The notes below the pieces were generated by a model. That model was not told the origin of the DNA, searched no databases, and was given only the letters and a program-made list of their open reading frames with translations. Shown piece after piece: positions 4,690-64,000 of a stretch of DNA of 64,000 nucleotides. Position 1 is the first letter of the stretch, and each line of letters begins with the position of its first letter. Source of the stretch: Leucoraja ocellata (taxonomy: Eukaryota). Both the position numbers and the translations under genes were made by a program. Location: the NCBI GenBank assembly GCA_036785375.1, contig JAWMAR010000346.1:1984001-2048000 (forward strand). The letters are read 5' to 3'.

Positions 4690-4790
4690 AGAGACACAAA
4701 ATCGTAGAGTAAGTCAACGGGACAGGCAGCATCTCTGGAGAGGAGGAATGGGTGAAGTTTCGGGTCGAGACCCTTCTTCTTCAGAAGAGA
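4690..4790 (-). mobile_element. Penelope terminal-repeat fragment with degenerate hammerhead motif
   Basis: Minus strand CTGAAGAagaagggtctcgacccGAAActtc followed by the family sequence ccattcctc...ccagagatgctgcc. Confidence 0.65.
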
Positions 4791-5414
4791 TCTCTGTTCA
4801 TCATCTTTTGCCGTGTCATATATAATGTTTGTAGTATTTTCAATAGCACTGAAAAACCGTTCTTGCCTTAAACCCACTTTTTCACACTAACTAGCAAGCC
4901 AGTTCTAGATGCAGTAAAGAAAAAAAGCAGCTTTATTTGCAATTTTATTCAGAACATTTAATAACACTGTATTAAGCAACACATATGACATGTATGAATT
5001 GTTGCTGTAATGCAGCAGTCAATTGTGATTTAATTAGCATTGATATTCATGCAGCATTGAGTGTATTTGATCGTGAGATGCATGAGCTACCTTTCCACCA
5101 GATAAATACTGACAGGAATGTTTCCTATGAGGGCAGATATATACGAAAAAACATAGCCGATGCAGTCAGGCATCAGCAGCATAACTACCACCCCCCTGCT
5201 GTGTACATCTCCCTTGACTCAGATGTCCAGCATGAAAGGTGATCAGCCTATTTTTTTTCCAGCTCATTTTTTTCCATACAAATACCAAGATGTTTGGTGT
5301 CATGTTCCAGGGTAAAGCAACATTTGTACTGCAAGGTTTGCTGGTCTTGTGTGCCAGCTCATCCCCTCTCAGCAATACATCCGAATGAATGCGCATCTAT
5401 GGACAGATTGCGGG

Positions 5415-5620
5415 CACAGAAGGCAGTGGAGGCCAATTCACTGGATGGTTTCAAGAGAGAGTTAGATACAGCTCTTAGGGCTAATGGAATCAAGGGATAT
5501 GGGGAGAAAGCAGGAACGGGGTACTAATTTTGGATAATCAGCCATGATCATATTGAATGGCGGTGCAGGCTCAAAGGGCTGAATGGCCTACTCCTGCGCC
5601 TATTTTCTATGTTTCTATGT
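5415..5620 (+). mobile_element. CR1-type LINE 3' end
   Basis: Encodes AVEANSLDGFKRELD, then the CR1 3' UTR (gggctgaatggcctactcctg) and a (TTCTATGT)n tail. Confidence 0.85.
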
Positions 5621-5908
5621 TAACGTTGCTTTCTTTCAGATCATTCTGCTCATACCAATTAGAGAATTGAAAACTTTACAATTAAGCCACAATTCAGAAA
5701 GTTGTGGTTGCATTATAGCACAATAAAGAAGTTATTTCTATGTCATTAGCAGCTCAGATTACACCATACCTGGCCTATTAGTGTGGTCTAATTTGTTATA
5801 TCTGTTAGAACCTGCAGGCATCTTTCTTTTATCGTCTATTCATTTGGGGATTGTGCAACTGTGGGATAATCTTATCTTAAAAAAGTAAATATCTAATTTT
5901 TGATTTTG

Positions 5909-6720
5909 TTTAAGAAGGAACTGCAGATGCTGGAAAATCGAAGGTACACAAAAATGCTGGAGAAACTCAGCGGGTGCAGCAGCATCTATGGAGCGAAGGA
6001 AATAGGCAACGTTTCGGGCCGAAACCCTTCTTCAGACTGATGGGGGTGGGGGGTGGCGGGGAGAAGAAAGGAAAAAGGAGGAGGAGGAGGAGCATGAGGG
6101 CTGAGGGATGGGAGGAGACAGCCCGAGGGCTGAGGAAGGGGATTTGATTTGTCTTCTTTCTATATATTTAAGATTTTCTTTTAATTTCCTTTTTATTTCC
6201 CCTAAAATTTCACATGTTGAAGATTTTGCTGCAGTTCCAACATTTCCTCCAGTTCTTTTCCTATTTATTAAACTGAACATTTGAAGTCTTTAACTTTTGA
6301 AGTTTGCCTTCTAATTATTCACTTGAGTGTCTTCGGTTTTTTTCTTTATAGTGCTTCAGTTCTCTACGACAATTATCTTTGGTTTTATGTCGCATTTCAT
6401 TTATATAATGTTACATTTCCTTCTCTTGATTACATTCCTCTTATTTTATGCTGTTTATTGTTAATATTATTACACCTGAATTCCTGGAGACACTTTAGCT
6501 AATATATGTTGACTCATTATTTCAAACTTGTTCGATTCAGTAATGAGTATAAGTAAATATATTTGACCAAATGGAACTACAGAAGGGTTCTGGAGAAGGG
6601 TTTCGGCCCGAAACGTCGCCTATTTCCTTCCCTCCATAGATGCTGCTGCACCCGCTGAGTTTCTCCAGCAATTTTGTGTACCTTCGATCTTCCAGCATCT
6701 GCAGTTCCTTCTTGAATACA
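5909..6720. mobile_element. Inverted pair of Penelope terminal repeats flanking an AT-rich insert
   Basis: 5909-6040 is the reverse complement of about 6588-6720. Purine-rich Penelope 3' UTR at 6040-6142. Confidence 0.75.
6007..6035 (-). ncRNA. Minimal hammerhead ribozyme core (sense to SHISA6)
   Basis: CTGAAGA-a-gggt-TTCG-gccc-GAAA-cg-TT with a palindromic AACGTT in place of helix III. Helix I is weak. Confidence 0.55.
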
Positions 6721-6809
6721 TTAAGGAAAGTTGGTTTTGTAAAATCCTAAAATAACTCAATCCAAGCAAAGGGATTCATTCACATTGTAGAATGGACTCC
6801 ATCATGGGA

Positions 6810-7142
6810 GACCCCTTCCACCCCTGCAACGGACTGTTCCAGCTGCTACGGTCAGGCAAACGCCTCCATTGCCATGCGGTGAGAACGGAGAGGTTGAGAA
6901 GGAGTTTCTTCCCAGAGGCAATTCGGACTGTAAACGCCTATCTCACCAGGGACTAACTCTACTGAACGTTTTTCCTTCCATTATTTATTATGTAAAAGAA
7001 TATGTGTGTTATGATTGTGTTTATAATTTGTTTGGTTGTTTTGTTGTTTGTCTTTTGCACAAAAGTCCGCGAGCATTGCCACTTTCATTTCACTGCACAT
7101 CTCGTATGTGTATGTGACAAATAAACTTGACTTGACTTGACT
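6810..7142 (+). mobile_element. Rex1/Babar-type LINE 3' end
   Basis: ORF2 C-terminal remnant (HPCNGLFQLLRSGKR...SFFPEAIR), then gtgacaaataaa(cttga)n tail. Confidence 0.75.
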
Positions 7143-7978
7143 CGTACACCGTAGTCAGAGACATGGATCCTCACTGGTTCTACCTCAATGGCTAGAATCA
7201 GGGAACCATGTCCCTAATCTCTTTAAGGCGATGGGAACATTAACTTATCCGCCCCTTGAACAACAAGTGCTTCTGGAAATACCGTTGTGTACTATTAACG
7301 AGGGGCCTTTCAGTGGTATGCTCTGAGCAGCCATGCCTCAGTTACCTTGCAAGACGGGTGACAAAATGGGAGCTCAATCAATAGTATAGGAAGAAACTGC
7401 AGATGCAGAAGGAACTGAAGATAGACACAAAATGCTGGAGTAACTCAGTGGGACAGGCAACATCTCTGGAGAGAAGGAATGGGTAATGTTTCGGGTCGAG
7501 AGCTGGAACGTCAACCATTCCTTCTCTCCAGAGATGCCGGAGTTACTCCAGCATTTTGTGCTCAACCAGCAGTGCTGCAAATAAAAGGTGACTCAACGTG
7601 AACTAAGACCACATTTAAAAACAGATAATGCTGGAAACACTCATCAGATCAGGCCGCATCTGTGGAAAGAGAAACTGAGTTAACACATCAGATGGAAAAC
7701 CCTTTATGAGAATGAAGAATTTGACAAATGGTCTTCAACCTGAAATTTGAATTCTGTTTCCCTTTCCACTGATGCTGCTTGACCCGTTGAGTGTTTCCAG
7801 CATAACCCTGTTTTTATTTCAGACTACCAGCATCTGCACCTCATTTTAAATCCATTTAACCACATTTAGCATAATTCTGACCTGCTCAATTACACTGCCT
7901 TGAGGGCTTTATAATGGAAATATGACCTTAGCCATCTATGGAAAATGGGTCACCATGAAGTTGAACGGTTGCTCCTCA

Positions 7979-8329
<351 letters not shown>

Positions 8330-9544: not shown

Positions 9545-9890
9545 CCCCACACTGACCTTTCTGTCCTGGGCCTCCTCCATTGTCAGTGTGAGGCCCAGCT
9601 CAAATTGGAGGAACAGCACCTCATATTTTGCTTGGGTAGTTTACACCCCAGCGGTATGAACATTGACTTCCCTAACTTCAAATAGCCCTTGCTTTCCCTC
9701 TCTCTCCATCCCCTCCCCCTTCCCAGTTCTCCCACCAGTCTTACTGTCTCCAACTACATTTTTACACCGTACCGCCCACTCCCCTGACATCAGTCTGAAG
9801 AAGGGTCTCGACCCGAACCGTCACCCACTCCTCTCCAGAGATGCTGCCTGTCTGTACGGCTGAGTTACTGCAGCATTTGGCGTCTATCTC
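9545..9890 (+). mobile_element. Penelope-like element 3' fragment (GIY-YIG C-terminus, UTR, hammerhead-bearing terminal repeat)
   Basis: LSVLGLLHCQCEAQLKLEEQHLIFCLGSLHPSGMNIDF, then CTGAAGAagggtctcgacccGAAC near 9795. Confidence 0.85.
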
Positions 9891-11634
9891 CTAAAACTCT
9901 CCTTGTATAACGCAATTACTGCAATGTGATAAGGACCAGCATGTCAAGTGCATTGGTGCACAAACAGCAAAGGATTCACAGAGGAATGTCTGCATCGCGA
10001 CATCACAGCCACTTACTAAATATCGGAATATTTGTATCTGATACTGACTGTCATCAGATAGTTGCCATCGTACCATTGTGCATCTGTCCAATGCACAGCA
10101 TTTAAAAATGTCCATGGCTGAAGTTATAGATAACAGCTTTTGTTTTGATCCAAAAGGAAAACAACCAGACAATGACAAATGGATCCGATCTACAGTAGAG
10201 ACAACAAGGTTCTCTGGTGACCATGGGGATTAGGATACTATATCCATAACTCAACGAGGTGAGCAAAGCAAACAATCTATCATAATAACATGCTGCTCAG
10301 GGCAGACAACCAGGATTAGGATTTCTTCTGTCATGCCTTATGGTGCCAGAGACCCCGGTTCAATACTGACCATGGATGCTGTCTGTACGGGATTTGTATG
10401 CGTTCTATGTGACCATGTGGGTTTTCTCTGGGTGCTCTGATTTCCTCACACATTCCAAAGACATGCAAGTTTTGCAGGTTAATTGGTTAATTGTAAATTG
10501 TCATAGATAGGGTAGATAACCAGACTTCGTTCCCCGTTTGTCTAAAACTCGAGGATATAGGTGCCTGGAATGCACTTCCAGGGGAAATGATATGTTATCA
10601 AATGGCAATAGATAGCAACGTTTAAGAATCATTTAGACAGACACATGAAAAGACAATAGAGGGATATGGATGTGCATTCAGACAGGATTAGTTTAAATTG
10701 GCATCTTGTTCAGCATAGTCATGATGGCCAAAGGGTCTGCACCAAGTCTCCACTGGTTTATATTCTAATACATTTACAGCTTTCATTGTGATTTATTTCT
10801 CTCTGCAGTACAACATTACAAATACATACCAACTGTGAATGACTATCTACGATGCCTGTATTGTATTTGATGGGATACCAGGTTGCGTGCTGGTGAATAA
10901 CACCATATGCACTGATTAGATGTTTTGTTACAGAGGCATTTGAACAAAATAGTATTCTATCACTTAATTAGCGCACCTGCATGCTGTAATTGTAATTGTG
11001 TTACAGAAAGCAAACACATTGTTATCTCTCTCCAGGAATCCACTTCATTACATAAGTGAATGTTTAGAAGATATTTGATAAAGTCTCTCATATGAGGCTG
11101 TTAGCTACACCTAACACTCATCAAACTGAAGACACACATGTGCATAGATTCCCAATGTTAATTCCAAGAGTTTGCTTACTTTATTAAATGCATAATAAAT
11201 AACTTTAACTTTCTGGAATCTGAAAAGGAGATTAATATCTTCAGGTAGTCCAGATGGTCATGCCCAGCCTCGAAGCTAATCCTGATAATAATTCAGGTGA
11301 GGGATTCCGTCTGGGAAGATGACAATATATATTGAGGAGAAAGACAAAGAAATGATTTCCCAAAACCTGACATCTAAAGTAGTCTATCCTTCACCCATGC
11401 TTTAAACATAAAATTAAATTATTAATAATAAAAGCCCAGCTATGGCAAAATGGATTTTGTGTTTGGACTGTGGAGTGTGGAGGTTTACGGATTACGAAGC
11501 TCTCAAAAGTGAACACATCTACAGAAGATGCCTCCACCTCCAATCTATCTCTAGTAGATGTCTCCACCTTCAACCTCTCCAGCTCGAATGAAAGGAGGTA
11601 TTTCATTCCGGAGAGAGAAAAATAGAAAGCGACA

Positions 11635-12410: not shown

Positions 12411-12540
12411 CATCGGTGCAGGAGGATAGATTTGCGGATGTAGTCCAAGTAAGAACCATTAAATAAACAGAGAAAATTGAATGTACTGGTCATCTTGATG
12501 GGTGGGATAAGGTGACCATTAGTGATGCATTCCCAATTAC

Positions 12541-12870
12541 CATTCCCAATCTGACCTTTCTGTCCTGGGCCTCCTCCATAGTCAGTGAGGCCCAGTGCAA
12601 ATTAGAGGAACAGCACCTCATGTTTCGCTTGGGTAGTTTACACCCCAGCGGTATGAACATTGACTTCTCCAATTTCAGATGACCCTTGCTTTCTCCCTTC
12701 TTCCCATCCCCCTTCCCAATTCTCCCACCAGTCCTACTGTCTCCGCCCACTGTCTATCTTTTTCCCACCCCCAACCCCCAGACATCAGTCTGAAGAAGGG
12801 TCTTGACCCGAAACGGCACCCATTCCTTCTCTCCATTGATGCTGTCTCGCCCGCTGAGTTTCTCCAGTTA
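12541..12870 (+). mobile_element. Penelope-like element 3' fragment
   Basis: GIY-YIG C-terminal remnant (KLEEQHLMFRLGSLHPSGMNIDF) and a hammerhead-like motif at about 12790-12816. Confidence 0.85.
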
Positions 12871-13279
12871 ATATTATAACATGAAGAAATAAAAGCTTTA
12901 CTGATCAGAAGGAAAATAAAACAACCACAAAATTAGGATCAAATTAAGTAAAGGATTCATAAACTAGCACAAACGTTGACGATGGAGAGACACGAGGAAC
13001 AACAAAAGTGGATCAAACATATCAAAGATCGACACAATATGCTGGAGTCACTCAGCGGGACAGGCAGCATCTCTGGATAGAAGGAATGGGTGACGGTTCA
13101 GGTTGAGACCTTTCTTCTATCCAGAGATGCTGCTTGTCCCCCTGAGTTACTCCAGCATTTTGAGTCTATCTTCGGTGTACACCAGCATCTGCAGTTCCTT
13201 CCTACTCAAACATGTCAAGATCTGTTTGGGGTATTAAATCAACAGATGACTTTGATATTAGGGAAACAAGGTTCTCATA

Positions 13280-14310: not shown

Positions 14311-14387
14311 CCCTTTGTATTTGGTGGTACACAAAAATGCTGGAGAAACTCAGCGGGTGCAGCAGCATCTATGGAGCGAAGGAGATA

Positions 14388-14420
14388 GGTAACGTTTCGG
14401 GCCGAAACCCTTCTTCAGAC
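14388..14420 (-). ncRNA. Minimal hammerhead core in a Penelope terminal fragment (14325-14420)
   Basis: gtCTGAAGA-a-gggtTTCGgccc-GAAA-cg-TT-ac. Core intact, helix I only 2-3 bp. Confidence 0.55.
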
Positions 14421-15365: not shown

Positions 15366-16771
15366 TAGAAAGGCTGTCTTGGCCTTTGAGAGAATTTAGT
15401 GCAGTTGTACTGAAAGGATGTAATCTCTTTCCACAAATTAATCTTGGACTTGAAGAGAAATTAAAAAACTAAGCTTTCACTCCCTGTAATGTAAATGTTT
15501 ATATTCTGCTTTGCTCAATATCTTCAAGGAACTGTGGGCAAATGAAAGGGTGGGACAAAAACTACTGCTGCCTGTTGGAAACTTCAAGGCATGCTATAAT
15601 ATTTGGTCCCATATCTTTTTAGGAGGGAATTTGTGAAATAATTCAAGAAACAAAAAGCTGGTGGGTGCCTGGATTTATCTTCTATCAATGGCAATTATTG
15701 CATTGTATAGGGAACACAACCCTAGTGCTTATCATTCTCTCTCCTTGAATGCAAAGAGTTTTGAAGTACTACATGATTTATTCTAGTACATTGAATCAGA
15801 ATCATTACTGGAAAAATTGAAACTCACTGCACAGAAGAGGGCCATTCTGTCCATTGTGTACAAGCCAAGCAAGAAACACCGTGTTATACTAATCCTACAA
15901 GGTCTGTTGCCCAGCAGACAATGACAATGACAACTTCTCACCAATGAAGACCTAAAATGCTGTAGTCTATAGGGATTAGACTTTCAGTCTGCATTGCATT
16001 TTTAATAAGTAAACTATTTTGTTTTTTTGTTTTTTTTCATCTCTGGCTTTTTCTAACCACCTGCCTATCAAACCCCTCTCATCTATATCCACCTATCGCT
16101 TGCCATGCTTTGTCCCGCCCCCTCCTATCTTCCAGCCTGTTCTCTAATGGTGCTGCCTGAACCGCTGAGTTACTCCAGTATGTTGTGTCTTTTTTTTTGT
16201 GATTTCCTGTATTTGTCTGATTCAGCTGAAGACAGCAAAGCCTTTGGACATCTTAGCACAAGCGTTTGAAATGCTTTGCCAGTTCGTCATCCTTTGTCTT
16301 GCTGTGGTTAAAACCAGCCTTCCCCACCGCTTCTTCAAAGCAGTAAATATTTCAGTCTAGGATCACGTCTGTGAAGCATCTTGAAAGTCCTTACAGTTTT
16401 AACAGCTGCTCAAGTTTATAGCCCAGCTGTTCTTGATTGGTTATGGAACATTTTCTTTATCCATAAAAGATCACCCTGAGAGAGATATGTAATTTGAAAG
16501 GAAAGATTTACAGCCACATCACCACAGAATTATTTAATTGAACTTCCAGTCCCCATCGACACAGGAAAGTGGTCTCAAACCTCAATTCTACCTGCATTTT
16601 TCAAACCCAAAACTCACGTATTTCATTACATACCTTCCCAATTCTTCTGATCTTCCCAACTCATATTGCTGAATCTCGATCTCTCTGCTACTGAACTTTA
16701 CGTAGCAGAGATATTTTTAGGGTGGGTTTGGCAAAATGCTCCTGGTTACAATGATTACATTTAAGTGGTAT

Positions 16772-16990
16772 ACAAAAATGCTGGAGAAACTCAGTGGGTG
16801 AGGCAGCATCTATGGATTGCTGGAGTAGGTGACGTTTTGGGTTGAGACCCTTCTTCAGTCTGAAGAAGGGTCTCGACCTGAAATGTCACCTATTCCTGCG
16901 CTCCATAATTACAGCCTCACCCGCTGAGTTTCTCCAGCATTTTTGTCTACCTTCGATTTTTCTAGCATCTGCAGTTCTTTCTTAAAAATG
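16772..16990. mobile_element. Palindromic Penelope-terminus element with back-to-back hammerhead motifs
   Basis: Arms of about 85 bp centred on cttcagtctgaag. Direct repeat taagtggtat at 16762-16771 and 16991-17000. Confidence 0.8.
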
Positions 16991-21060: not shown

Positions 21061-21734
21061 GAATCACACAGCTTGCTGCCTGATGTATATTATCTGAATT
21101 GAGAGAGAGACACAACATGCTGGAGTACAGTAACTCAGCAAGTCGGGCATCATCTCAGAGATGCTGTCTGACCCGTTGAGTTACTCCAACATTTTTGTGT
21201 CTCTCTTCGGTATAAATCAGTATCTACACTTCATTTTTATTACAACTTGTCTGCTCCATCTGAATTGAGAGGCTAGACTGGCAGTAATTCAGAATTCTGA
21301 TTCAGATACTGTGTCTAAGTTTCATAATTTCACCAATCAGCAATTCTGTCACTCTGATTCGGTATTTTGATCGAACATCCTGTCGAATAGGAAGTAATTA
21401 AATAGCAACAAAGATATTTTAAGTAAAAAAATGTACAGGAGCAACATTCCTTACTTTGTGTTTCTGTGCCGTTTTTGAACTGCACAAATTAACATTGCAA
21501 TCACACTAAGAACTGTCAATCACACACAACAGCAATTAAATAATTATTTGACCCCGACCAATATTACATATACCCTATTTCCTGTTCACTTTCAAATGTA
21601 ACCAGCTTTTCTTTGAAACTCTATCAATATTTCAAGGTTTCCTCATGCACTTATCTGAAGAAAGGTCTTGACCTGAAACGTCACCTATTCCTTTTCAACA
21701 GAAATGCTGCCTGACCCACTGAGTTATTCCAGAA

Positions 21735-22440
21735 AGTCCCTGCTTCAACTATCTCCTCTGGCAGCTTGTTCCATACCCCCACCACCCCTTGTGTGAAAAA
21801 ATTACCCTTCGGATTTGTATTAAATCTTTTCCCCATCACCTTGAACCTATGTCCTCTGGTCCTCGATTCACCTACTCTGGGCAAGAGACTCTGTGCATCT
21901 ACCCAATCTTTCCTCTCAGGATTTTATACACCCCTATAAGATCACCCCTCATCCTCCTGTGCTCCAAGGAATAGAGTCCCAGCCTACTCAACCTCTCCTT
22001 ATAGCTCAGACCCTCCAGTACGGGCAACATAGAAACATAGAAAATAGGTGCAGGAGTAGGCCATTCGGCCCTTCGAGCCTGCACCGCCATTCAATATGGC
22101 CATGGCTGATCATCAAAGGATCATCCAATATCCTTGTAAATCTTCTCTGTAAATTTCTCTGTACGCAGATTGGTCTGAAGAGGGGTCTCGACCTGAAACG
22201 TCACCAATTCCTTCCTTCCAGAGATGCTGCCAGTCCTGCTGAGTTACTCCAGCATTTTTTGTCTATCTTCGGTGTAAACCAGCATCTGCAGTTCCTTCCT
22301 ACACACTCTGTACCCTTTCCAGCTTGACATCTTTCCTATAACATGGTGCCCAGAACTGAGCACAATACTCTAAATGCGGCCTCACCAATGTCTTATATAA
22401 CTGCAACATGACCTCCCAACTTCTATACTCAACTGACCTC
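21735..22440 (-). mobile_element. CR1 LINE 3' fragment with two nested insertions
   Basis: LEGLSYKERLSRLGLYSLEHRRMRGDLI and RTRGHRFKV...FFTQGVVGVWNKLP. Confidence 0.9.
22169..22208 (+). ncRNA. Type I minimal hammerhead ribozyme with complete helix I
   Basis: attggt-CTGAAGA-g-gggt-ctcg-acct-GAAA-cg-TC-accaat. Predicted cleavage after C22202. Confidence 0.7.
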
Positions 22441-28885: not shown

Positions 28886-29350
28886 GAATTGGTTACGGAG
28901 GAACTCCAGATGCTGGTTTACACCGAAGGTAGACACAAAATGCTGGAATAACTCAGTGAGACAGGCAACATCTTTGGATAGAAGGAATATGGGACATTTT
29001 GGGTCAAGACCCTTCTTCGGAGACTGGGGTCACCCATTCCTTCTATCCAGAGATGCTGTCTGAACTGAAGTGGAACAGGTTAAAGGATTTTCAGCAGAAA
29101 AGGAAAGTAGTATAAAGGTTATGATGGATGCTATTTAGTTAAACAAGGTAAGGCAGCTGAACAAAATGATGAGTGCATGTAATTGCAGGTAACATAGGAA
29201 CATAGAATGTGGAACTGTTAAGAGATTGGATACAGAGAGTGAAGGTAGAATCCTTCCATTTGCTGCAGGTAGACAAAAATGCTGGAGAAACTCAGCCGGT
29301 GAGGCAGCATCTATGGAGCAAAGGAACAGGTGACGTTTCGGGTCGAGACC

Positions 29351-38830: not shown

Positions 38831-38832
38831 TA

Positions 38833-43829: not shown

Positions 43830-43980
43830 TTTAAGGAAGAACTGCAGATGCTGGAAGAATCAAAGGTAGACCAGAAATGCTGGAGAAACTCAGCGGGCAA
43901 TGCAGCATCTACGGAGAGAAGGAATTCCTGCCTAGATGCTGCCTCACCCGCCGAGTTTCTCCAGCATTTTTTGTCTACCA
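43830..43980. mobile_element. Palindromic Penelope-terminus element
   Basis: Inverted arms. Flanks ttgctgaatgcttg / ttgctggatgcctg form an imperfect TSD. Confidence 0.75.
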
Positions 43981-44229
43981 TTGCTGGATGCCTGGCATGG
44001 TTGAAGCAGGAATCTGAGATTTGTTATGCAGTAGTGAGCATTAAACTGACTGATTGTGGGTAAACCATCAACCACTGTCTGGTACAGATCTATTGTGCAA
44101 ACATTGCAAGCCACAAGCATTTACTGCTCGCGTCATGCTGAGCTAAGGGATCAATGTGTTTGCAAATCTGTTTCAAGCTGATAGTACACATTCATTATTG
44201 CTTCCCTGTACAGATACAACTTGCTTAAA

Positions 44230-48309: not shown

Positions 48310-48760
48310 GTCGGTTGCCAAACACTTTAATTCTCCTTCCCATTCCCACACTGTCCTAGGTCTCCTCCATTGTCAGAGTGAGGCTTAATGAAAATTGGAG
48401 AAACAGCATCCCATTTTTCGCTTGGGCAGCTTCCAGCCCCGTGGTATGATATTGATTTCTCTAACTTCAAGTAATCCCTGCATTCCCTCCCTCTCCATCC
48501 CTATCCCACCCAAGTTGTACCAGCTTCTCATTCTCACCTAGCACACAGCTAACAATGGCCTGTTTCCTTTATCATCGGGTTTTTTTGCATATCTTTTATT
48601 CGTTTGTTCTATATCTCTCAACATCACCGTCTACATTTCTCATTTCCCTTTCCCCTGACTCTAGTCTGAAGAAGGGTCTTGACCCAAAACTTCAGCCATT
48701 CCTTCTGTCCAGAGATGCTGCCTGTCCCACTGAGTTTAGTCCGGCATTTTGTGTCTATCA
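48310..48760 (+). mobile_element. Penelope-like element 3' fragment
   Basis: VAKHFNSPSHSH...KLEKQHPIFRLGS remnant and a mutated hammerhead at about 48666-48692. Confidence 0.85.
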
Positions 48761-48830
48761 AGGTTCTCTACAAGCTGTGTTTGTTGAGAAAACTTTCCCT
48801 AAGGTTCCATCAACGTCACGTTACAACAAT

Positions 48831-49335
48831 GGCGGCATTGTGGCACAGCGGTAGAGCTGCTGGCTTACAGTGGCAGAGACTCGGGTTCCATCCCGACCAC
48901 GGGTGCTTGTCTGTACGAGGTTTGTACAGTCTCCCTGTGACCTGCATGGGTTTTCTCCGAGATCTTTCTCCGAGGTTTCCTCCCACACTCCAAAGACGTA
49001 CAGGTTAGTAGGTTTAAGAAGGAACCGCAGATGCTGGAAAATCGAAGGTACAAAAAAAAGCTGGAGAAACACAGCGGGTGTAGCAGCATCTATGGAGCGA
49101 AGGAAATAGGAAACGTTGCCTATTTCCTTCGCTCCATAGATGCTGCTGCACCCGCTGAGTTTCTCCAACTTTTTTGTGTACTTTCGGGTTAGTAGGTTAA
49201 TTGGCTTGGTGCAAATGTAAATTTGTCCTTAATGTGTATAGGCTAGTGTTAGTGTGCGGGATGATCGCTGGTCGGTGCAGACTCGGTGGGTTGAGGGGCC
49301 TGTTTCTGCGCTGTATCTCTAATCTAAACTAATCA
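48831..49335 (+). mobile_element. Full V-SINE (HE1-like) interrupted by a palindromic Penelope terminus
   Basis: tggcacagcggtagagc A-box, gggttccatccc B-box, V-domain and CR1-like tail. Confidence 0.88.
49015..49186. mobile_element. Palindromic Penelope-terminus element
   Basis: Arms centred on ggaaacgttgcc. Perfect 12-bp TSD ggttagtaggtt at 49003-14 and 49187-98. Confidence 0.85.
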
Positions 49336-50094: not shown

Positions 50095-50450
50095 ACACAC
50101 ACACACACACACACACACACACCCACGCACGCCCACACGCCCATGCCCACACGCACACCCATACCCAGGTACATGGACACAAGGATATACACACATGCAC
50201 ACAGACACATGCATACAGACACTTGCAGAGATACACACACATGGACAGATACAAATGCACCTAGAGANNNNNNNNNNNNNNNNNNNNNNNNNNNNNNNNN
50301 NNNNNNNNNNNNNNNNNNNNNNNNNNNNNNNNNNNNNNNNNNNNNNNNNNNNNNNNNNNNNNNNNNNNNNNNNNNNNNNNNNNNNNNNNNNNNNNNNNNN
50401 NNNNNNNNNNNNNNNNNNNNNNNNNTATACGCACACAGATATACACACAC
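50095..50450. repeat. (CA)n-rich microsatellite region spanning the assembly gap
   Basis: Pure (AC)n near 50095-50122, then degenerate CA-rich sequence. Confidence 0.9.
50268..50425. other. Assembly gap (N run)
   Basis: Run of N bases. Confidence 0.99.
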
Positions 50451-51524
50451 AGGCGCACGTGAAGATAGACACAGAATTCTGGAGTAACTCATCAGGAGAG
50501 GCATCATCTCTGGAGAGAACGAATGGGTAGCATTTCAAGACGTTACCCTCTTAAGAAGGGTCTCAACCTGAAATGTCACCCATTCCTTCTCTCCAGAAAT
50601 GCTGCCTGTCCCGCTGAGTTACTCCAGCATTTTCTGTCTATCTTCGGTGTAAATCAACATCTGCAGTTCCTACCTACATGTACACACACACGTACGCACA
50701 CACTCACACACCAGGCATGTTGCAGGTGAATTTGTCTGGGTTTTTAAACTGCCCTGTTACATGCCTCATCCCCTTCTTTTCAAATGTAACCGCACAATCA
50801 CAACAAACAAAATCACCCGGTCTTTTTCTCGTGGATGAGGAGCACTCTGCGAGAGGGAAGAGAGGGACAAAGTTCTCTGCTCCTTACACCCACTGGCACG
50901 AGATGAGACGTATATTGCAGACAGCACAGGACTTGTTCACACATAGAGGCAGCTGGTAGCAGGCTGCTGTTCGGTCAAGGGAATTGGGATGCAAAGGTCA
51001 AAGTTGTATCTCATTACTGCTCAGAAGGACCTGGGTGAAAACGCTGATCAGTAGCACACACGGCAAGTCTGGAGTGTGAAAGAATTGATGCCTTCTCTAG
51101 GCTTTCAGACAGCCTTTCAGAGAAGTCAGAAAGAAGTGCAGTCGATGTGGCATTTACTTCCATTCTTTACACTGGCGAGGCTCAGAGCATTTGGGCACTT
51201 GGTTTGTGTAGGACTATCATGCTATTTGTGCCTTTGTTATGACATTGAGCCACCAGAGTGTAAGAACTGACACAAAAGTCTCATACTTAGTGTTCCCTCT
51301 AACAAGAGATATGTCAGGGCTGGGCGATGCTTCTCTGAAACAGTACATGCCTGCAGCAATAAGCTCTGTCAGTGTGTTAAAGAGGGCTATGAACCAAGGT
51401 TTCCTGCTGTCAACAAAACTGGGAAAGTCAGTTTATGGGTGCTAGTCGAACTGCAAGTGTCGGAACTTCTGTTGCATCCGTTTTGTCCAAGGACCTCAAC
51501 AAAACCAGTTATAGAGTCACAATG

Positions 51525-51850: not shown

Positions 51851-52154
51851 CTTTTTCTAATCTAATGTACTGTATTTGGTGTCTACAAGATGGCCTTGTC
51901 CACGTCTGAGGAAACAAATCCAGATTTGGAATCATTTTGTGCAGCAGTGCAGGACCCTGGCCATCTGGTTGCATTCCATGTTAGTTTTCCATCCAACGTC
52001 CATCCTGACCATTCTATCTGTGCCCTCCTGCATTGCTCGCAACAAGGTCCAATGGAAACTTGAGGAACAGTATCTCACCTGAACACATTGCAGCCTTCTG
52101 GACTCCATATCAAGCAGTCCAACTTAAATAAGTTGGACATTTATGTTACTCCCA

Positions 52155-53115
52155 ATTCCTCTTTCTACGCTGGAGTACCAGGATGAGGTGTTCCAAACCA
52201 GGGCATCAGAGATGTCCTCATTCTTTAGGGAACGGGGGTTCCCCTCTTCGACTATAGATGAGGCTTTCACCAGGGTCTCTTCTATACCCCGTAACTCTGT
52301 TCTCACTCCCCATCCCCCTACTCGTAACAAGGGCAGAGTCCCCATTCTCCTCACCTTCCACCCTACCAGCCGTCACATACAACAGATAATCCTCTGACAT
52401 TTTCGCCACCTCCAACGTGATCCCACCACTGGCCACATCTTCCCACCTCTTCCGCTGTTGGCTTTCCGCAGAGGCCGCTCCTTCCGTAACTCCCTGGTCA
52501 ATTCGTACCATCCCACACAAACCACCTCCTCCCCGGCACTTTCCCTGGCAACCGCAGGAAATGCTACACTTGTCGCTTTATCTCCCCCCCTTGACTCCAT
52601 CCATTCTTTCCAGGTGCGGCAGAGGTTCACCCCGCACCTCCTCCAACCTCACCTATTACATCCGCTGCTCTAGGTGTCAGTTGCTCTACATCGGTGAGAC
52701 CAAGCGTAGGCTTGGCGATCGCTTCGCCCAACACCTCCGCTCGGTTCGCAATAACCAACCTGATCTCCCGGTGGCTCAGCACTTCAACTCCCCCTCCCAT
52801 TCCGAATCCAACCTTTCTGTCCTGGGCCTCCTCCATGGCCAGAGTGAGTCTCACCGTAAATTGGAGGAGCAGCACCTCATATTTCGCTTGGGTAGTTCAA
52901 GCTCCCCAGCTGTATGAACATTGACTTCCAATTTCAGGTAATCCTTGCTTTCTTCCTCTTTCCCCTCCCATTCCCAGCTCTCCCACAGCCCACTGTCTCT
53001 GCCTTCCTTTCTTCTTCCCACCCCCCCCTCCCCCCATCCCCAAAACATCACCCATTCCTTCGCTCCACAGGTGCTACCTCACCCGCTGAGTTTCTCCAGC
53101 ATTTTTGTCTACCTT
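52155..53115 (+). mobile_element. Penelope-like element 3' half with GIY-YIG endonuclease (disrupted)
   Basis: SSNLTYYIRCSRCQLLYIGETKRRLGDRFAQHLRSV...PVAQHFNSPSH...KLEEQHLIFRLG, with stops and frameshifts upstream. Confidence 0.93.
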
Positions 53116-56100
53116 CTTGCCCAACTTAAATAATTTGTTCTTTCTTCTTGTCTGAATGAGGTGGCCATTTCTGCCTGTCATCGTTTACTCCATTTTCCTT
53201 GCCTATTAGTGCCGTTTATGTTGTAGCACCTGTTCTAAAGACTCGCTGTTAACAACACATTACACAGGTGCAGAAACATAAAATCTTTCACTGCCCATAA
53301 GCCCATTTAGTCTCACCCTATCAGGCACATCCTCTTTGTTCTATCCACCCCTTCCCCACTGTCCCTTCTCCTAAAAGTCATTTATTACCCCACCCCCCTT
53401 CTCTTTCCGCCAATATTATCTAACATTCTGCATGTTTCTGATATTTTCTGTTCTTATTTCATACTTACAACCAAATTAATGTATTTTTAACAGATCTGTA
53501 CGATTTCTGCCTTACGTATTAAACTATAGACCGATTGCATAAGAACATATGCCTGAAATGTATGTTGAAGTACAGTAGAAAAGGACTTTTGTTGGATACT
53601 TTAAACACACCCACTTTTTTTAATCATTCAATGCATGCCGGAGATATGTTTGAATTTGACCCTCAGAATGCTGTCGAATTTTATTTCATGGAATTATTCA
53701 GATGTGTTGATAATGTTGTAGAATTTGAGTCTGTATATTGCTGAAGGGGAAATACACCATTAGCACCTTTTTGCATTCTGAACATTGTTTTCAGATGGGG
53801 GTGGGGTGGGATGGGGGGTGGGGGTGGGGGGGCTTGGGGGGGAGGTGAGGAAAGAAGGTGGAGGTGAGGTCATGGGAGTTGAGAAATGTAACATACCAAG
53901 GGTTCCAAGTTCTCTGTATCTTTGGGGAAACCTCTGATCGTTTTTGGCCTCCCAGTCCAGATATGCAATTTTTTCCTTATGGCTTGTTGGTTTGGAATAT
54001 TGGAAAGGATCTCGGAAACAGTCTAGAAAAGAGGAAAAGGAGTGGAGTCAATTCTGCCCGTCACGGAAGACTGGCACATATCAGCAGAAAATGGACCTTG
54101 TGTGAGAATCGAACCTTTGGTTTGAAAATCCGTCATTCGGACACACTTATTTCCGTTCCCTTACCAAATAATGTCATTTGACACTGAGAGGTGAATCAGC
54201 TTTAGATGTGAATCTACCAGCCTTGCTGATTTTCCATTTGCTTTTACAGGATTACTAAGCAGTTGATTTATGTTTCCTTTGGGAACACTTGCATCGCCCA
54301 TCATTAATCAGCTTGAGAGCCAGATCACATAGCAGTTGCCCTACTTTGAGATTTGTTGCATATTTATAATTTAACGAAGCAGGTTGTGATTTATATGCGC
54401 TGAGGGCACCATGTTATATTTGCATATTTTTGTGGCCAAAAAAAAAATCGTCAATTTGTAAATTATCACGGAAAATACCAAACTGAAGTAATGTATATGT
54501 TAGCACGTTTCATTCTGAACATAATTACAACCTTCCTATCATTGTTGAATCCTCTTGCCTCCCAGCATCAGATACACGTGTTCAGTCAATGCCTCTGACT
54601 GACATAATGAATTTCCATTTGACCACTGCTGTGATGCTGCCCACATTTTTGGCATCTAACAGGTTGTATTATTCAAGACCAGAGCTCTAAGAGTGTTATA
54701 TATCCGCGTCAGCAATGATGCCAGGAGACGAGGTTGAATTTTCGAATCAACTTTATTTAATGTTTGAGAAGGGTTGGAGTCCTATTTCTTACATTCACAC
54801 AATATATTTTGTCGGATACCAACTCTCTGGGTTCTTTGGATGCCTACTACAAATGTAGTTATATTTAAGTTACAGATACTCATCTCCCGAATAATTAGTT
54901 GAAGTTGTGGAGACATTTGCTAACAGGCTGAAGCTCTTGTTGCCTTGCCCATTGTGAAGCAACACAAGGGAAAGCTGTATGGACGAAGCAATCCTTAAAG
55001 GGGAAGATGCTTTGGACTGGCTTTTTCATGTTTGATTTTTTATTCACAATAGAAAATTATGAAATATTATCACTAGCTGCACCATCACACCTTTTGTTCC
55101 AATGTCCACTAACCTCAGTTTGGTAGAGAGCAAATTCTTTATCATTTGCACTCAACTTATGATGTAAGCATGTCATGGAAATTAAGACCTGCACCTACAT
55201 GATCTTTTTCTGGCAGGCTACCAATTAATAGACTGCCAACATGCATCAGCAAAGGGCTCCGCACACACTGAATAGTGTAAAGGCAGTACTGTTGTGTATC
55301 GCACACTGCTGCTTGTGAGAAAGATCGTGGAATGGCTGAGGTTAAGCGTGGCAGCATCTGATGAAGAGATTCTAGTCCTTCTACCAAGTTCATCTTGCCC
55401 TTCCCACTTCCACCTCAACAAGTGTCACCAAGCTCACTAAGTGCCTCGTCCTAGCTGTGTGTGGCTGTGCATGTGATGGCTAACCATGGTGACGTGTGCT
55501 GCTGCCACAGTCCAGCCCATTGGTGTTCAAAGACTGGAGTCCAAGCCTACAATGACACAAAGATAAAAGTATTAGAAAGCTTGCCACCAGTCATGGCTTC
55601 AAAGAGAGACCACATTACGAAGTATGATGTTCAGTGTTTGTGCAGATGCGTTTGTTGGAGTTAATGAAAATTGAGGCAAGGTGTAAGAGAAGGATTGTCC
55701 TACCCCTCAACTTGAAATGACCTGGTGTTTTAATCCCTTTCCGTGTTCTCCAATGCCACCATGTGCAGGATGGCTTCTTGCAAGGATGTTTGAACCTGGC
55801 TCCAGGCTGAGCCCATTCTTCCTGTGCCCTCTAGAACAAGTAGAAATATACACTTGAGATGCTGTCAATGGAAGAGCTCAACTGGTAGATGTTCTACATA
55901 AACCACACCAATGTTGCCGAGGGAATATGCCAATAAACAGCCTCCTTGCATCCTCATCACATATTCAGCTGAAACAGGGTCCTGACCCAAAATGTTGCCT
56001 ATCCATGTTCTCCAGAGATGCTGCCCGACTTGCTGAGTTACTCCAGCATTTAGTGTCTTTTTTTTTTGGTAAACCAGCATCTGCAGTTCATTGTGTCTAC

Positions 56101-56536
56101 ATATATGTTCAGCATGTTGCTTTTCACTAGCAGCATATGCCATGTGGCTCCATCTTTCACTCACAGAATGCACTGGCTGGAACCTACTGGGAATTTCAGC
56201 AGCTCCTCTCTAGAATAGGAACAATTATTTTCTGCTAGGCTCAGCAAGGATGGACCTCCCATATGAACATACAAGTACCAAATTAGACCTGCACCCCACT
56301 GGCAATTTCCCACCTGCAACATTCAATTCTAGATGAAGTCGAGTGATGGAACACAAGCCTCATGAGTACATCCATTGGAAAATCTGCATTTTAAACTTGG
56401 TTTAGATTAGACTATCAAATGAAATTGTTTAGTAAAAGTATAAGCAAATCTAAAATTCCTTTAATTATGTTTATTTTAATGACTTAATTAATTCAAAGCG
56501 TTTTTATATTTTTAAATGACTTCAATTTTTATTTTG

Positions 56537-56931
56537 GAGAAAGTCAGCGGGTGGGTTTATGAGCATCGATGGAGCAAAGGAAATAGGCAACGTTTCGGGT
56601 CGAAACCTTTCTTCAGACATAGAAACATAGAAACATAGAAATTAGGTGCAGGAGTAGGCCATTCGGCCCTTCGAGCCTGCACCGCCATTCAATATGATCA
56701 TGGCTGATCATCCAACTCAGTATCCCGTACCTGCCTTCTCTCCATACCCCCTGATCCCCTTAGCCACAAGGGCATAGAAACATAGAAATTAGGACCCGAA
56801 ACGTTGACCCGAAACTATCAGACCCGAAACTAGTTCCTTCGCTCCATCGATGCTGCCTCACCCGCTGAGTTTCTCCAGCATTTTTTTCTACCTTCGATTT
56901 TCCAAATGTTTAAGTTCCTTCTTAAACATAA
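56537..56931. mobile_element. Composite: inverted Penelope termini with a CR1 tail inside
   Basis: 15-bp TSD tcaatttttattttg at 56522-36 and 56932-46. CR1 3' end at 56618-56772 (minus). Confidence 0.8.
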
Positions 56932-60539: not shown

Positions 60540-61100
60540 TACGAGATAGAGTCATAGATAGAGTTATAGAGTGATATAGTGTGGAAATAGGCCCTTGGCC
60601 TAACTTGCCCACACTGGCCAACAATGTCCCAACAGCGCTAGTTCCACCTGCCCACCTTTGGTCCCTCCAAACCTGTCCTATCCAGGGTTTCGGCCCGAAA
60701 CGTTGCCTATTTCCTTCGCTCCATAGATGCTGCTGCACCCGCTGAGTTTCTCCAGCTTTTTTGTGTACCTTCGATTCTCCAGCATCTGCAGTTCCTTCTT
60801 AAACACTATCCATGTACCTGTCTAACTGTATCTTAAATGTTGGGCTAGTCCCAGCCTCAACTACCTCCTCTGGCAGCCTGTTCCATACACCCACGTGAAA
60901 ACGTTACCTCTCCAATTCCTATTAAATCTTTTCCTCTTCACCTTAAACCTATGTCCTCTGGTCCTCGATTCCCTACTCTGGGCAAGAAACTCCGTGCATC
61001 TACACAATCTATTCCTGTCATAATTTTATACACCTCAATAAGATCATCCCTTATCCTCCTGAGTCCCAGACTACCCAACCTCTCCCTATAGCTCAGATCC
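60540..61100 (-). mobile_element. CR1 3' fragment with nested Penelope terminus (60685-60805, TSD ctatcca)
   Basis: CR1 UTR and ORF2 remnant. Direct repeat at 60678-84 and 60806-12. Confidence 0.85.
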
Positions 61101-61719
61101 TCTGGATGATGTAATTAGATGCCACAAATGCAAGTCCATAAACATAACTTGATTATTAAATAATAGAACGGTGAGGATACATTTGTAATACTCACAATAA
61201 CACCTTTCAATTTAATGTTTCCCTGATTGCTATAGATAGATATTCGTTTCCAATGGCAACAATACTAATTGAGAAATCAAAAAATATTTCCAGAAAGAAG
61301 CATCAAATAGATTATTTACTTCATTGTACTCTGCACTGGAACTTATTCCACTGATGTTAATAGAAATGAATTTTGGAAGTGAACTGTATTAAACTGGCAC
61401 AATTACATAGCGGGAATGTAATTACACAATTACATACGAATGAATTTTGAGGGTTGTTTTCCCCCCTTTCTAACATTTCCTTTTTAAAAGCTGTTGGAAT
61501 ACAGTTGTTAATACCAGCACAATTCAAATGTATGATAATCTTATTATTTATCAGCAACAGAAACAACCAAATTCAGAAATCTGTAATTTATCACCATCAG
61601 TACTTGCATTGAGGGTTCTATCCGCAAAGCTTTCCCGAGTTACTGTGCCCAATTCTGCCTTTTTCTCCAATTTGTCAGTGTTTTATGCACAAGAAGCAAT
61701 TGCAAGCAGTTAAGTGCAA

Positions 61720-62068
61720 CATAGAAACATAGAAACATAGAAATTAGGTGCAGGAGTAGGCTATTCGGCCCTTCGAGCCTGCACCGCCATTCAATATGAT
61801 CATGGCTGATAATCCAACTCAGTATCCCGTACCTGCCTTCTCTCCATACCCCCTGATCCCCTTAGCCACAAGGGCCACATCTAACTCCCTCTTAAATATA
61901 GCCAATGAACTGGCCTCGACTACCCTCTGTGGCAGAGAGTTCCAGAGATTCACCACTCTCTGTGTGAAAAAAGTTCTTCTCATCTCGGTTTTAAAGGATT
62001 TCCCCCTTATCCTTAAGCTGTGACCCCTTGTCCTGGACTTCCCCAACATCGGGAACATCGGGAACATG
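61720..62068 (-). mobile_element. CR1 LINE 3' end (young subfamily)
   Basis: MFPMLGKSRTRGHSLRIRG...FFTQRVVNLWNSLP and a (TTTCTATG)n tail. Confidence 0.92.
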
Positions 62069-62159
62069 CAGGGAAAGGGATATTTGAAACATCTTAGCAA
62101 GTAAATAAACCACATTGATCCCCATTTACTTGAGGAAGGAACACTATTTAATGCAAGGG

Positions 62160-62428
62160 ACGGTCACGGTGGTGCAGCGATACAGTTGCTGCTTTACAGC
62201 GAATGCAGCGCCGGAGACTACGGGTGCTGTCTGTACGGAGTTTGTACGTTCTCCCTGTGACCGCGTGGGTTTTCTCCGAGATCTTCGGTTTCCTCCCACA
62301 CTCCAAAGATGTGCAGGTTTGCAGGTTAATTGGCTCGGTAAATGTAAAAATTGTCCCGAGTGGGTTAATACGCGGGGATCACTGGTCAGCGCGGACCAGG
62401 TATTTCCGTGCTGTATCTCCAAACTAAA
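62160..62428 (+). mobile_element. V-SINE (HE1-like)
   Basis: ggtcacggtggtgcagcg head and V-domain cgtgggttttctccgagatcttcggtttcctcccaca. Confidence 0.85.
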
Positions 62429-62987
62429 AGAGGTAAGTCGCAACTCATTAAGATTCAGTAAGGATCAAGAATAGCAATAATAGAAAACAAAGACTAATGT
62501 AGGGAGGAGGATGGTATCAAAGACTGATATGGAAATTATAAATGGCTTGTTGAAAAAGTTGGATGACCCTTTGCATCTGTTTAGATTACAACAAAGATTA
62601 CTTGTGTCTCCTTATGCACTGGATCAAAATCTTAATTGGTTTCTAGCGGGTAACAAAGGGCATTGTGTTAAATACATCAAAGAGATCAAGGACGACAAGG
62701 CAGTTGGGTGTGAATTAATTTATTCCAAGCTGCTGAAGAGATGGCAGATGTAATAGTGTGTAATGGATAATTTTTTACTGGCTCTGTGACAATTGGTGTA
62801 ATTTGGAGATAGATGCATATGATCAATGTTAAATGAAGGAAGTTGATGATCTGCACTACAGTGTTAGGAACGTTTATAGAAGATACTACAAGAGATGCTG
62901 TGAATCAGTACATAGAACAAATAGGAATGATAGAAATCACCCACAATTACGTCAAGTTCCACAGAAAGGTACAAAGTATTTGAGTAA

Positions 62988-63214
62988 AGGGCCTGTCCCA
63001 CTTTTACAACCTAATTCACAACCTTTTTTACTCGTGGATATTTTTCATTATGCTAGAAAAACGCCCCGACCTACTTGATGCCACGAGTACCTACAACTAG
63101 CATCACGGCCTGCTACAACCTACCTACGACCTCGTGTCGACCATGCTGCGAGTATGAGTCAAGGGCAAACTCGGCAGAGGTCGTGAATTAGGTTGAGAAA
63201 CTGGGACATGCCCT
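62988..63214. mobile_element. PIF/Harbinger-type MITE family B, complete
   Basis: TAA|agggcctgtcccacttttacaacctaattcacaacc...ggtcgtgaattaggttgagaaactgggacatgccct|TAA. Confidence 0.85.
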
Positions 63215-64000
63215 TAACCCAGTGGGTCAGGCAGCATCTTGGCAGAACATGGCTAGGTGACGTTGTGGATCAGAACCATTCTTCGGTCTGAAAAAGTGTC
63301 CCAGCCTGGACCGTTGCCTGTCCAAATTCTCCACTGATGCCACCTGACCTGCGGAGTACTTTGTATCTTTTTTGTAAGCAAGCATCTGCAGTTCCTTGTC
63401 ACTCAAAAATCAAAGGGCACGTTCGACACAGCTCATCTAGTTTATTGAAAAGGAATTAGAATCCCAGATGAAGCAAACAAAAGTAAAATACCTGGCATGG
63501 AGTGGATGATATTTGCTTAACTAATGTAAACTTCATAAGGAGAAGCTCAAGAACTAAAAATTAACCTCAGCAAAGAGTGGTTTTAAATTAAATGGCCCAC
63601 ACAGTGGAATCTGTCTAATAAACCCAGGAGTTCCAGAGGAAGGGAGGAAGAGGGAAAGAGAGAGAGAGAGAGGGAGAGAGAGAGTGAGAGACAAGCTAAA
63701 AAATCTACTGGGTCATATCCCACTTTCTGCCATTTATTCATAGTTTATCCAGTTGAAATATCCGTGATATTTGGTCTCTACCACTCCGTCAGACAATTAA
63801 TTGTAGATTGGGTGAAGGTGTTTTCCCTCAGTTTCCTTCCATTGCATCTGCCTATTATTAACATAAACCTTGTTGTCGACATCTGCCAAGGGAACTCGGT
63901 CTTTCTTTCTTATCCTATATAGACCACTAATTCCTTCTGCCACTTAGAGACGTTAGAGATGTAGCACGGAAACAGGCCCTTCGGCCCACCGAGTCTGTGC

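What the first reader, a model, noticed from the sequence alone, without database searches (positions are those of the whole stretch)
4752..63320. About 20 hammerhead-ribozyme motifs dispersed through the SHISA6 introns
Seen: recurring CTGAAGA-a-gggt(ctcg/ttcg)(a/g)ccc-GAAA-cg-T(C/T). Plus copies start near 6590, 9795, 12790, 16860, 21655, 22175, 23105, 48666 and 50550. Minus copies lie near 4785, 6035, 14418, 16858, 26921, 29350 and 56616, with more decayed ones elsewhere. Stem II varies compensatorily (gggt/accc, aggt/acct, gggt/gccc). At 9795, 12790 and 48666 the motif follows a GIY-YIG ORF end. Established: Penelope-like elements carry minimal type I hammerheads with a palindromic helix III that work as dimers. 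Inference: many copies here are stand-alone 100-220 nt units, a retrozyme-like non-autonomous family at high density. Minus-strand intact cores (6007-6035, 14388-14420) are transcribed in SHISA6 pre-mRNA.
Basis: partly seen in the sequence, partly recalled or inferred. Interest (0 to 1): 0.7.

Follow-up and report, generated by a model that had tools for sequence, protein, structure and literature searches.

The report
Penelope retrotransposon ends carrying decaying hammerheads
These intron repeats are short pasted end-pieces of a very common, known kind of jumping gene in a skate-like fish; they carry a known self-cutting RNA motif that is broken in most copies and is predicted not to cut the host gene's RNA, so the finding is real but ordinary.

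Summary
The motifs are real: 24 in the window, none in shuffles, but only 5 keep every core feature. Each begins a 95-130-nt unit that follows the GIY-YIG stop of a Neptune-type Penelope-like element (76 of 83 loci) and runs on into the 5' leader and ORF of full-length copies. The genome holds 86,566 exact cores, so SHISA6 is not special. Stand-alone units are true insertions: two are haplotype-polymorphic with 14-17-nt target duplications. They are not retrozymes: tandem junctions are rare (151), and 5' ends pile up just before the core (78 of 202), not at the cut site (2 of 202). Copies decay neutrally (core 9.8% vs flank 8.5% mismatch), and stem II shows no compensatory change. A sense-strand deficit of intact cores in SHISA6 (11/83 vs 20/67) did not replicate in a second gene (19/57 vs 13/55). 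Best reading: short cDNAs copied from internal priming sites to the element's likely transcription start. This scan already reported the same family on other shark/ray DNA.

The parts
3924..4505 (-). SHISA6 last coding exon (host gene context)
   Evidence: 97% identity to a skate shisa-6-like protein
8120..8272 (-). SHISA6 exon (approximate bounds)
   Evidence: tblastn
31165..31234 (-). SHISA6 exon (approximate bounds)
   Evidence: tblastn
53886..54030 (-). SHISA6 alternative exon (approximate; in 1 of 4 query isoforms)
   Evidence: tblastn with P0046
5904..6140 (-). Element end with pyrimidine-rich 3' UTR, intact minimal hammerhead core at 6035-6008, unit and tail; sense to SHISA6; helix I 2 bp
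   Evidence: helix II probability 0.00 in folding
14319..14420 (-). Solo 100-nt unit without tail, intact core at 14418-14391; sense to SHISA6; helix I 2 bp
   Evidence: helix II probability 0.00
16763..16989 (.). Head-to-head inverted pair centred on 16859; plus arm core intact (16860) with tail, minus arm core broken and tail-less
21655..21733 (+). Solo unit, core intact but helix I only 1 bp; antisense to SHISA6
22168..22306 (+). Solo 130-nt unit, core intact; flank gives a 7-bp helix I; antisense to SHISA6
9550..9894 (+). 5'-truncated element: GIY-YIG C-terminal remnant (start approximate), 3' UTR, unit with broken core (GAAC) at 9795
12540..12867 (+). 5'-truncated element: GIY-YIG remnant, 3' UTR, unit with broken core at 12790
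48317..48775 (+). 5'-truncated element: decayed GIY-YIG remnant (start approximate), longer 3' UTR, unit with broken core at 48666
52147..53136 (+). Longest element piece in the window: RT-EN linker with Cys motif, GIY-YIG, 3' UTR, unit with 5' part of the core deleted
4668..4781 (-). Solo unit, core decayed
6590..6719 (+). Solo unit with tail, first core box mutated
7382..7561 (.). Inverted pair, tail on one arm
12995..13211 (.). Inverted pair
21099..21240 (.). Inverted pair lacking the core, 12-nt flanking direct repeat
23031..23207 (.). Inverted pair; plus arm core at 23105 with helix III broken
26789..26921 (-). Solo unit with tail, GAAA box mutated
28889..29063 (.). Inverted pair, decayed core
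29250..29359 (-). Solo unit, first core box incomplete
30771..30932 (.). Inverted pair (fold-back scoring weakly as a miRNA precursor)
43825..43984 (.). Inverted pair lacking the core
49010..49189 (.). Inverted pair lacking the core, flanking direct repeat
50438..50680 (.). Inverted pair, both cores decayed
55969..56095 (+). Older-subfamily solo unit, decayed core
56534..56616 (-). Solo unit, core boxes intact but first helix II pair mismatched
60684..60806 (+). Young unit truncated inside the core
63215..63408 (.). Old inverted pair, decayed cores

Best explanation
The repeats are the terminal segment of a very abundant Penelope-like retrotransposon, inserted as 95- or 130-nt pieces that are likely short cDNAs copied by the element's own reverse transcriptase, and their hammerhead motif is decaying cargo predicted not to cut SHISA6 RNA. 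SHOWN: element order is ORF (RT, Cys linker, GIY-YIG), stop, 110-300-nt pyrimidine-rich UTR, TCAGT, hammerhead core, about 65 nt, a 35-nt tail, then in tandem or full copies the rest of the leader and the ORF start. Also shown: two fixed 3' ends, one sharp 5' boundary 1-7 nt before the core, and target duplications at polymorphic insertions. INFERRED: transcription starts at the initiator-like TCAGT. The enzyme primes internally about 95 or 130 nt from that RNA end, as shown in vitro for the anole element, so an RNA begun at its own start yields only a short unit. Only read-through RNA from an upstream tandem copy yields ORF-containing insertions. Fold-back or template switching at the RNA end gives the inverted pairs and rare dimers. 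The hammerhead fold is kept in the master lineage but is unselected once inserted.
For: The unit follows the EN stop in 76 of 83 de-duplicated EN-selected loci; 2 of the 76 look like spurious alignments by eye. It continues into leader and ORF in L106, L119, L124 and L128, with L119 and L128 as partial tandems. A 909-aa open frame has RT (PF00078 E 7e-6, under cut-off), the DKG motif and a C-x4-C-x2-C linker. 5' ends: 78 of 202 at -7..+2, 31 extend further upstream, 2 at +26..+30; stop rate 0.116 vs 0.002 per nt. 3' ends: 55 of 214 at model positions 95-104 and 91 of 214 at 125-134. The same ends recur as loose ends in 4 runs of related organisms. Two clean presence/absence insertions (114 and 140 nt, 14 and about 15-17-nt duplications) among 33 haplotype indels. 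Flanking repeats of 10 nt or more at 7 of 40 window units vs 5 of 400 controls. Core vs invariant non-core mismatch 241/2470 vs 464/5434. Helix II probability 0.00 for both sense cores. Double-hammerhead fold is 15 and 28 kcal/mol above the minimum in 2 natural dimers. Literature: tail, inverted copy and 5' truncation are PLE signatures (PMC8557442, passages). Internal RT initiation defines the tail and cleavage is not needed for insertion (PMC11167929, parts 1-2 of 4).
Against: No direct transcription-start data: one search found no place where many molecules begin or end, in fragmented libraries from other organisms. 'Initiator-like' is a recalled consensus; an Inr in PLE pLTRs is described in PMC3846280 and PMC2377424 (passages). 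5' boundaries from local alignment are fuzzy by several nt. In EN-selected young copies the core had fewer mismatches than other columns (32/760 vs 429/5610, p=0.0003), though that comparison includes subfamily-diagnostic columns. SHISA6 alone showed fewer intact cores in sense (11/83 vs 20/67, p=0.015). Folding models ignore protein help, and the anole ribozyme cleaved only with protein (PMC11167929).
Confidence: 0.85

Rival explanations
1. A distinct non-autonomous retrozyme-like family: short units are cut out of tandem transcripts by the hammerhead, circularised, and reinserted in trans.
For: Short units greatly outnumber ORF-linked ones (31 of 109 core-reaching copies extend upstream). 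They insert with target duplications. Some dimers and trimers exist. Retrozymes related to pLTRs are reported, including in one chondrichthyan (bioRxiv 2026.07.22.740005, parts 1-3 of 5).
Against: Only 151 head-to-tail junctions, with variable spacers. In the 30 loci viewed, arrays had 2-3 units, often of two subfamilies. Unit ends are not at the cleavage site. The two young subfamilies both occur directly behind GIY-YIG. Described metazoan retrozymes have canonical hammerheads in 150-450-nt tandems (PMC7229834, passages).
Confidence: 0.06
2. The sharp 5' boundary is a splice acceptor (pyrimidine tract then CAG|T), as in Drosophila virilis Penelope, and templates are spliced or intron-released RNAs.
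For: The pyrimidine tract and CAG directly precede the core. In D. virilis the intron end maps to helix I (PMC4209133, parts 1-2 of 4).
Against: No shared upstream exon among 71 solo copies; composition fades to background beyond -6. A donor-like GT at the EN stop is not conserved (G in 35 of 97), and none of the short UTRs among 97 EN ends is an exon-exon junction. No GT..AG joint among the 15 joints shown of 168.
Confidence: 0.06
3. Intact sense-strand cores are active in host pre-mRNA (as trans dimers or with the element's protein) and affect SHISA6 expression.
For: Two intact sense cores in the window. Deficit of intact sense cores over 380 kb of SHISA6. Four of four subfamily-level variable positions are fold-compatible.
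Against: The pre-specified replication in 400 kb of a large CUB-domain gene went the other way (19/57 sense vs 13/55 antisense; pooled p=0.31). Helix I is 2 bp and the G-rich arm prefers a downstream pyrimidine tract. Single minimal hammerheads showed no cleavage in PMC4209133.
Confidence: 0.05

Closest known systems
Minimal type I hammerheads in pLTRs of metazoan Penelope-like elements (Cervera and De la Pena 2014, PMC4209133; parts 1-2 of 4 read; 2 supplement files searched, file 1 not searchable)
   Same: CUGANGA/GAAA/UH core, bulged A before helix II, G10.1-C11.1, loop-less palindromic helix III; mostly single dispersed motifs or opposite-strand neighbours attributed to truncated PLEs; Neptune elements of fishes named.
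   Different: Helix II is 4 bp and helix I only 2 bp (paper: typically 7-8 and 4-5 bp in Schistosoma; 2 bp in D. virilis). Copy number is about tenfold above its largest vertebrate counts (4,000 and 9,000). No shark or skate term was found in the searched supplements.
EN+ Penelope-like elements, Neptune/Nematis type (Craig et al. 2021, PMC8557442; passages)
   Same: C-terminal GIY-YIG, Cys linker motif, partial tandems forming pLTRs, inverted 5'-truncated copy, 30-40-nt tail at one end.
   Different: Here the extreme short form dominates and has a sharp 5' boundary. Clade not confirmed by a tree.
Poseidon element of Anolis carolinensis (Frangieh et al. 2024, PMC11167929; parts 1-2 of 4)
   Same: Two internal RT starts bounding the tail, about 100-130 nt past the hammerhead; no RNA ends seen at the cut site.
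   Different: There the ORF starts in stem II; here the in-frame ATG is about 165 nt after the core. Different PLE clade.
Metazoan non-LTR retrozymes (PMC7229834, passages; bioRxiv 2026.07.22.740005, parts 1-3 of 5)
   Same: Short, non-coding, type I hammerhead, related to PLE pLTRs, many monomers.
   Different: Defined by tandem arrays with a hammerhead in each unit and by circular RNAs. Arrays are rare here, the hammerhead is minimal, and the unit is part of the autonomous element.

Membership tests
EN+ Penelope-like element | Single ORF with RT followed by GIY-YIG endonuclease | tested here: met
   909-aa open frame in L081/L082; RVT_1 E 7e-6 and GIY-YIG E 2e-4, both just under Pfam cut-offs
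EN+ Penelope-like element | Partial tandems forming pLTRs | tested here: met
   L119, L128: EN end, UTR, unit, then ORF start
EN+ Penelope-like element | Inverted 5'-truncated copy and optional 30-40-nt tail | tested here: met
   13 of 40 window units inverted; bimodal 3' ends 35 nt apart
EN+ Penelope-like element | Target-site duplication on insertion | tested here: met
   2 polymorphic insertions with empty sites; 7 of 40 vs 5 of 400
Neptune clade | Zn-finger-like CX2-5CxxC linker between RT and EN (shared with Nematis) | tested here: met
   C-x4-C-x2-C before the GIY-YIG in L082 and at window 52390-52914; motif as given in PMC8557442
Neptune clade | RT phylogeny groups with Neptune references | not tested
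   No named reference set fetched
Minimal type I hammerhead | Core boxes, helix II, palindromic helix III in the family majority | tested here: met
   Column counts in 190 copies; met by only 5 of 24 window copies
Minimal type I hammerhead | Helix I of 4-5 bp | tested here: not met
   2 bp; third pair is A-C in 129 of 190. A 2-bp helix I has precedent in D. virilis
Minimal type I hammerhead | Compensatory base changes in helices | tested here: not met
   Only one-sided U-A/U-G changes; double changes at chance level. One genome only
Minimal type I hammerhead | Self-cleavage as dimer or with protein | not testable with these tools
   Folding disfavours it
Non-LTR retrozyme | Head-to-tail tandem arrays with a hammerhead in each unit | tested here: not met
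   0 of 40 window units; 151 junctions genome-wide, 2-3 units in the 30 loci viewed
Non-LTR retrozyme | Non-autonomous unit distinct from the autonomous element | tested here: not met
   Same sequence lies behind EN and before the ORF
Non-LTR retrozyme | Abundant small circular RNAs | not testable with these tools
   Only polyA and single-cell libraries of other organisms were laid

The most novel reading that the evidence does not exclude
Tens of thousands of intact minimal hammerheads sit in host pre-mRNAs, and when the element's protein is expressed, or two cores pair in trans, some cut host introns such as those of SHISA6, making the retrotransposon a switchable, transcriptome-wide RNA-cleavage system.
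Probability: 0.05. Interest if true: 0.7.

Novelty: new member of a known kind. Interest (0 to 1): 0.2.

Why it matters
As a SHISA6 feature it does not matter: it is genome-wide repeat debris. Its modest value is mechanistic. The very large number of short insertions records, in a genome, where a Neptune-type element begins reverse transcription (two sites) and where its template RNA likely begins (just before the hammerhead, not at its cut). That fits the in vitro result that cleavage is not needed for insertion and bears on the open question of what PLE hammerheads do. Haplotype-polymorphic copies and long open ORFs suggest a recently active family that could be studied.

Tried and rejected
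Rfam scan: no hammerhead family among 13 matches; the miRNA hits, all below gathering score, are mostly fold-backs of inverted pairs. Sense depletion of intact cores: not significant in the first 264 kb (9 vs 13), nominal over 380 kb, failed in replication. The replication covered 400 kb of one gene; about 1 Mb from three genes was planned, so power is limited, and the gene's extent rests on same-strand CUB exons. Excess core conservation was rejected because subfamily-diagnostic columns inflate the background; against invariant blocks it vanished. Splice-acceptor model: no shared exon and no conserved donor. Search for an older CUGAUGA-core subfamily returned 82 matches that look like point variants of the main families (those loci were not analysed further). 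Clustering into older subfamilies left 251 of 440 copies unclassified and was not used for statistics. Run search: no RNA holder listed on record. Read lay: 83-94% of RNA reads run on into unrelated sequence and no begin/end pile-up was listed, but the libraries could not show cut ends. A degenerate Shisa motif search found nothing in the window; exons were then found by homology. Lunse et al. on dimer cleavage could not be read; only its citation was seen. Paper searches for skate or shark PLE hammerheads listed no dedicated paper; this library lacks most subscription journals and Repbase.


Full report
Observation. A strict box search found 12 CTGANGA..GAAA hits. A degenerate 28-nt core found 24 motifs, against 0 in 3 shuffles. 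All 16 named copies are there, but only 5 of 24 keep all core features: 16860, 21655 and 22175 on plus, 14418 and 6035 on minus. The motif begins a longer repeat. A profile finds 56 pieces; the 53 scoring 20 bits or more merge into 40 insertion units, 13 of them head-to-head pairs. SHISA6 is confirmed on the minus strand with four exons in the window. The closest named protein hits are from skates and rays.

What the unit is. GIY-YIG remnants precede 9795, 12790, 48666 and 53034. In the own genome, first-look candidates numbered 131,174 for the endonuclease piece, 15,971 for an RT piece and 1,068 for a 5' DNA piece; these are not copy numbers and the methods differ. In loci chosen by protein similarity, the unit follows the endonuclease stop in 76 of 83. 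Walking upstream gave 909-aa open frames and then copies where the unit runs on through a leader into an ORF starting about 165 nt after the core. L119 and L128 are partial tandems. So the unit is the start of the next tandem copy's leader, which forms the terminal repeat of every insertion. A Cys linker motif between RT and endonuclease points to the Neptune type (PMC8557442 passages); no tree was built.

Not special to SHISA6. One exact intact-core pattern occurs 86,566 times, with 0 for the reversed control; the assembly appears to contain duplicate haplotigs, so the haploid number may be lower. That is one per 40 kb, and the window has 2. Copies per 10 kb were 6.9 in the window, 5.35 in 200 kb of other SHISA6 introns and 3.15 in 20 arbitrary 10-kb stretches.

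Ends and mechanism. In 464 kb not selected for the repeat, 3' ends are bimodal: 55 of 214 at model positions 95-104 and 91 of 214 at 125-134. This matches the optional 30-40-nt tail that marks two internal RT starts in the anole element (PMC11167929). For 5' ends, 202 of 209 copies could be scored: 78 stop at -7..+2 of the core, 31 extend upstream, and 2 stop around the predicted cut at +28/29. Reads and contigs of related organisms show loose ends at the same places. Comparing two haplotypes over 200 kb gave 33 indels of 40 nt or more. Two are clean insertions of the short unit with target duplications: 114 nt at about G000:C346:2349490 and 140 nt at about G000:C361:2394690. Short units are therefore inserted as such, and recently. 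I infer that the template RNA starts at the initiator-like TCAGT (consensus recalled; Inr elements in PLE pLTRs are described in PMC2377424 and PMC3846280, passages) and that copying from the internal sites to this end yields the short unit. Cut RNA is not the usual template. A splice-acceptor reading lacks a shared exon or conserved donor.

Retrozyme test. Tail-to-start junctions number 151. The 30 loci viewed, several being haplotig pairs, hold two or three units with variable spacers, often of different subfamilies, as expected from template jumps or neighbouring insertions. The defining arrays are lacking.

Is the ribozyme selected or active? Among 190 copies only four positions vary at subfamily level: a loop base, 11.4, 17 and 1.1. 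All four are compatible with the fold, modest support for selection on the master element. Double changes are at chance level (p=0.65, 0.34, 0.40). One search gave lower core mismatch (32/760 vs 429/5610), but that background includes subfamily columns. Against invariant blocks the core is no better conserved (9.8% vs 8.5%), even though copy selection favoured intact starts. Helix I is 2 bp. Helix II has probability 0.00 in both sense cores; only antisense copy 22175, whose flank gives 7 bp, folds hammerhead-like (0.34-0.39 in 55 nt, 0.13-0.15 in 175 nt). Double-hammerhead folds in two natural dimers cost 15 and 28 kcal/mol; a third could not be evaluated. Across SHISA6, intact cores were rarer in sense (11/83 vs 20/67, p=0.015). 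The test fixed in advance gave 19/57 vs 13/55 in a second gene, and the pooled p was 0.31.

Comparison with what is known. Cervera and De la Pena describe minimal hammerheads in fish Neptune elements, widespread as single or opposite-strand motifs and probably from truncated PLEs, with no monomer cleavage. Eight earlier notes of this scan describe the same family on other shark or ray DNA. My reading was written before seeing them; they prompted the target-duplication check. bioRxiv supplements were closed and one supplement of PMC4209133 could not be searched, so a published description of this exact family may exist there or in Repbase.

Verdict. A real, abundant, recently active Penelope-like element end carrying a known minimal hammerhead. 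It is not a retrozyme family, and there is no replicable sign of an effect on SHISA6. Interest 0.2.

Noticed in passing
window 22168-22210 (+): The flank happens to extend helix I to 7 bp, and the minimum-energy fold is hammerhead-like. It is the only such case among 22 strict cores in 380 kb, and it is antisense to SHISA6.
   Followed up: partly
L160:~477-556 (-): Two intact cores 36 nt apart by direct duplication, a compact natural double hammerhead candidate.
   Followed up: no
L183/L184:~1650-1950; reads: 33-nt tandem amplifications of the stem II to helix III segment form a minisatellite; reads that go back 33-34 nt also occur.
   Followed up: no
window 22026, 27305, 31641, 43521, 51533, 56624, 61726: Another dispersed family with short tandem-repeat ends, likely LINE/SINE 3' ends (label recalled); one copy is a 402-nt haplotype-polymorphic insertion.
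   Followed up: no
window 32627-33208 and 42107-42817 (+): Fragments of other retroelements: RVT_1 with ALKBH8_N-like domain, and a weak zf-RVT match.
   Followed up: no
window 53886-54030 (-): Alternative SHISA6 exon matched only by one stingray isoform among four queries.
   Followed up: partly
G000:C346 vs C361: Two contigs hold the same SHISA6 region at about 97% identity, so the assembly retains both haplotypes and repeat counts are inflated.
   Followed up: yes
P0003, P0009, P0011: Annotated ray and skate host proteins include this element's endonuclease piece, suggesting exonisation or annotation read-through; the unit also holds a pyrimidine tract plus AG that resembles a splice acceptor.
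   Followed up: no
L101-L130 (5' part of the ORF): The element's N-terminal coding region contains a variable-length GC-rich tandem repeat.
   Followed up: no
window 38819-38970: 10-nt-period minisatellite, also matching near 19138.
   Followed up: no
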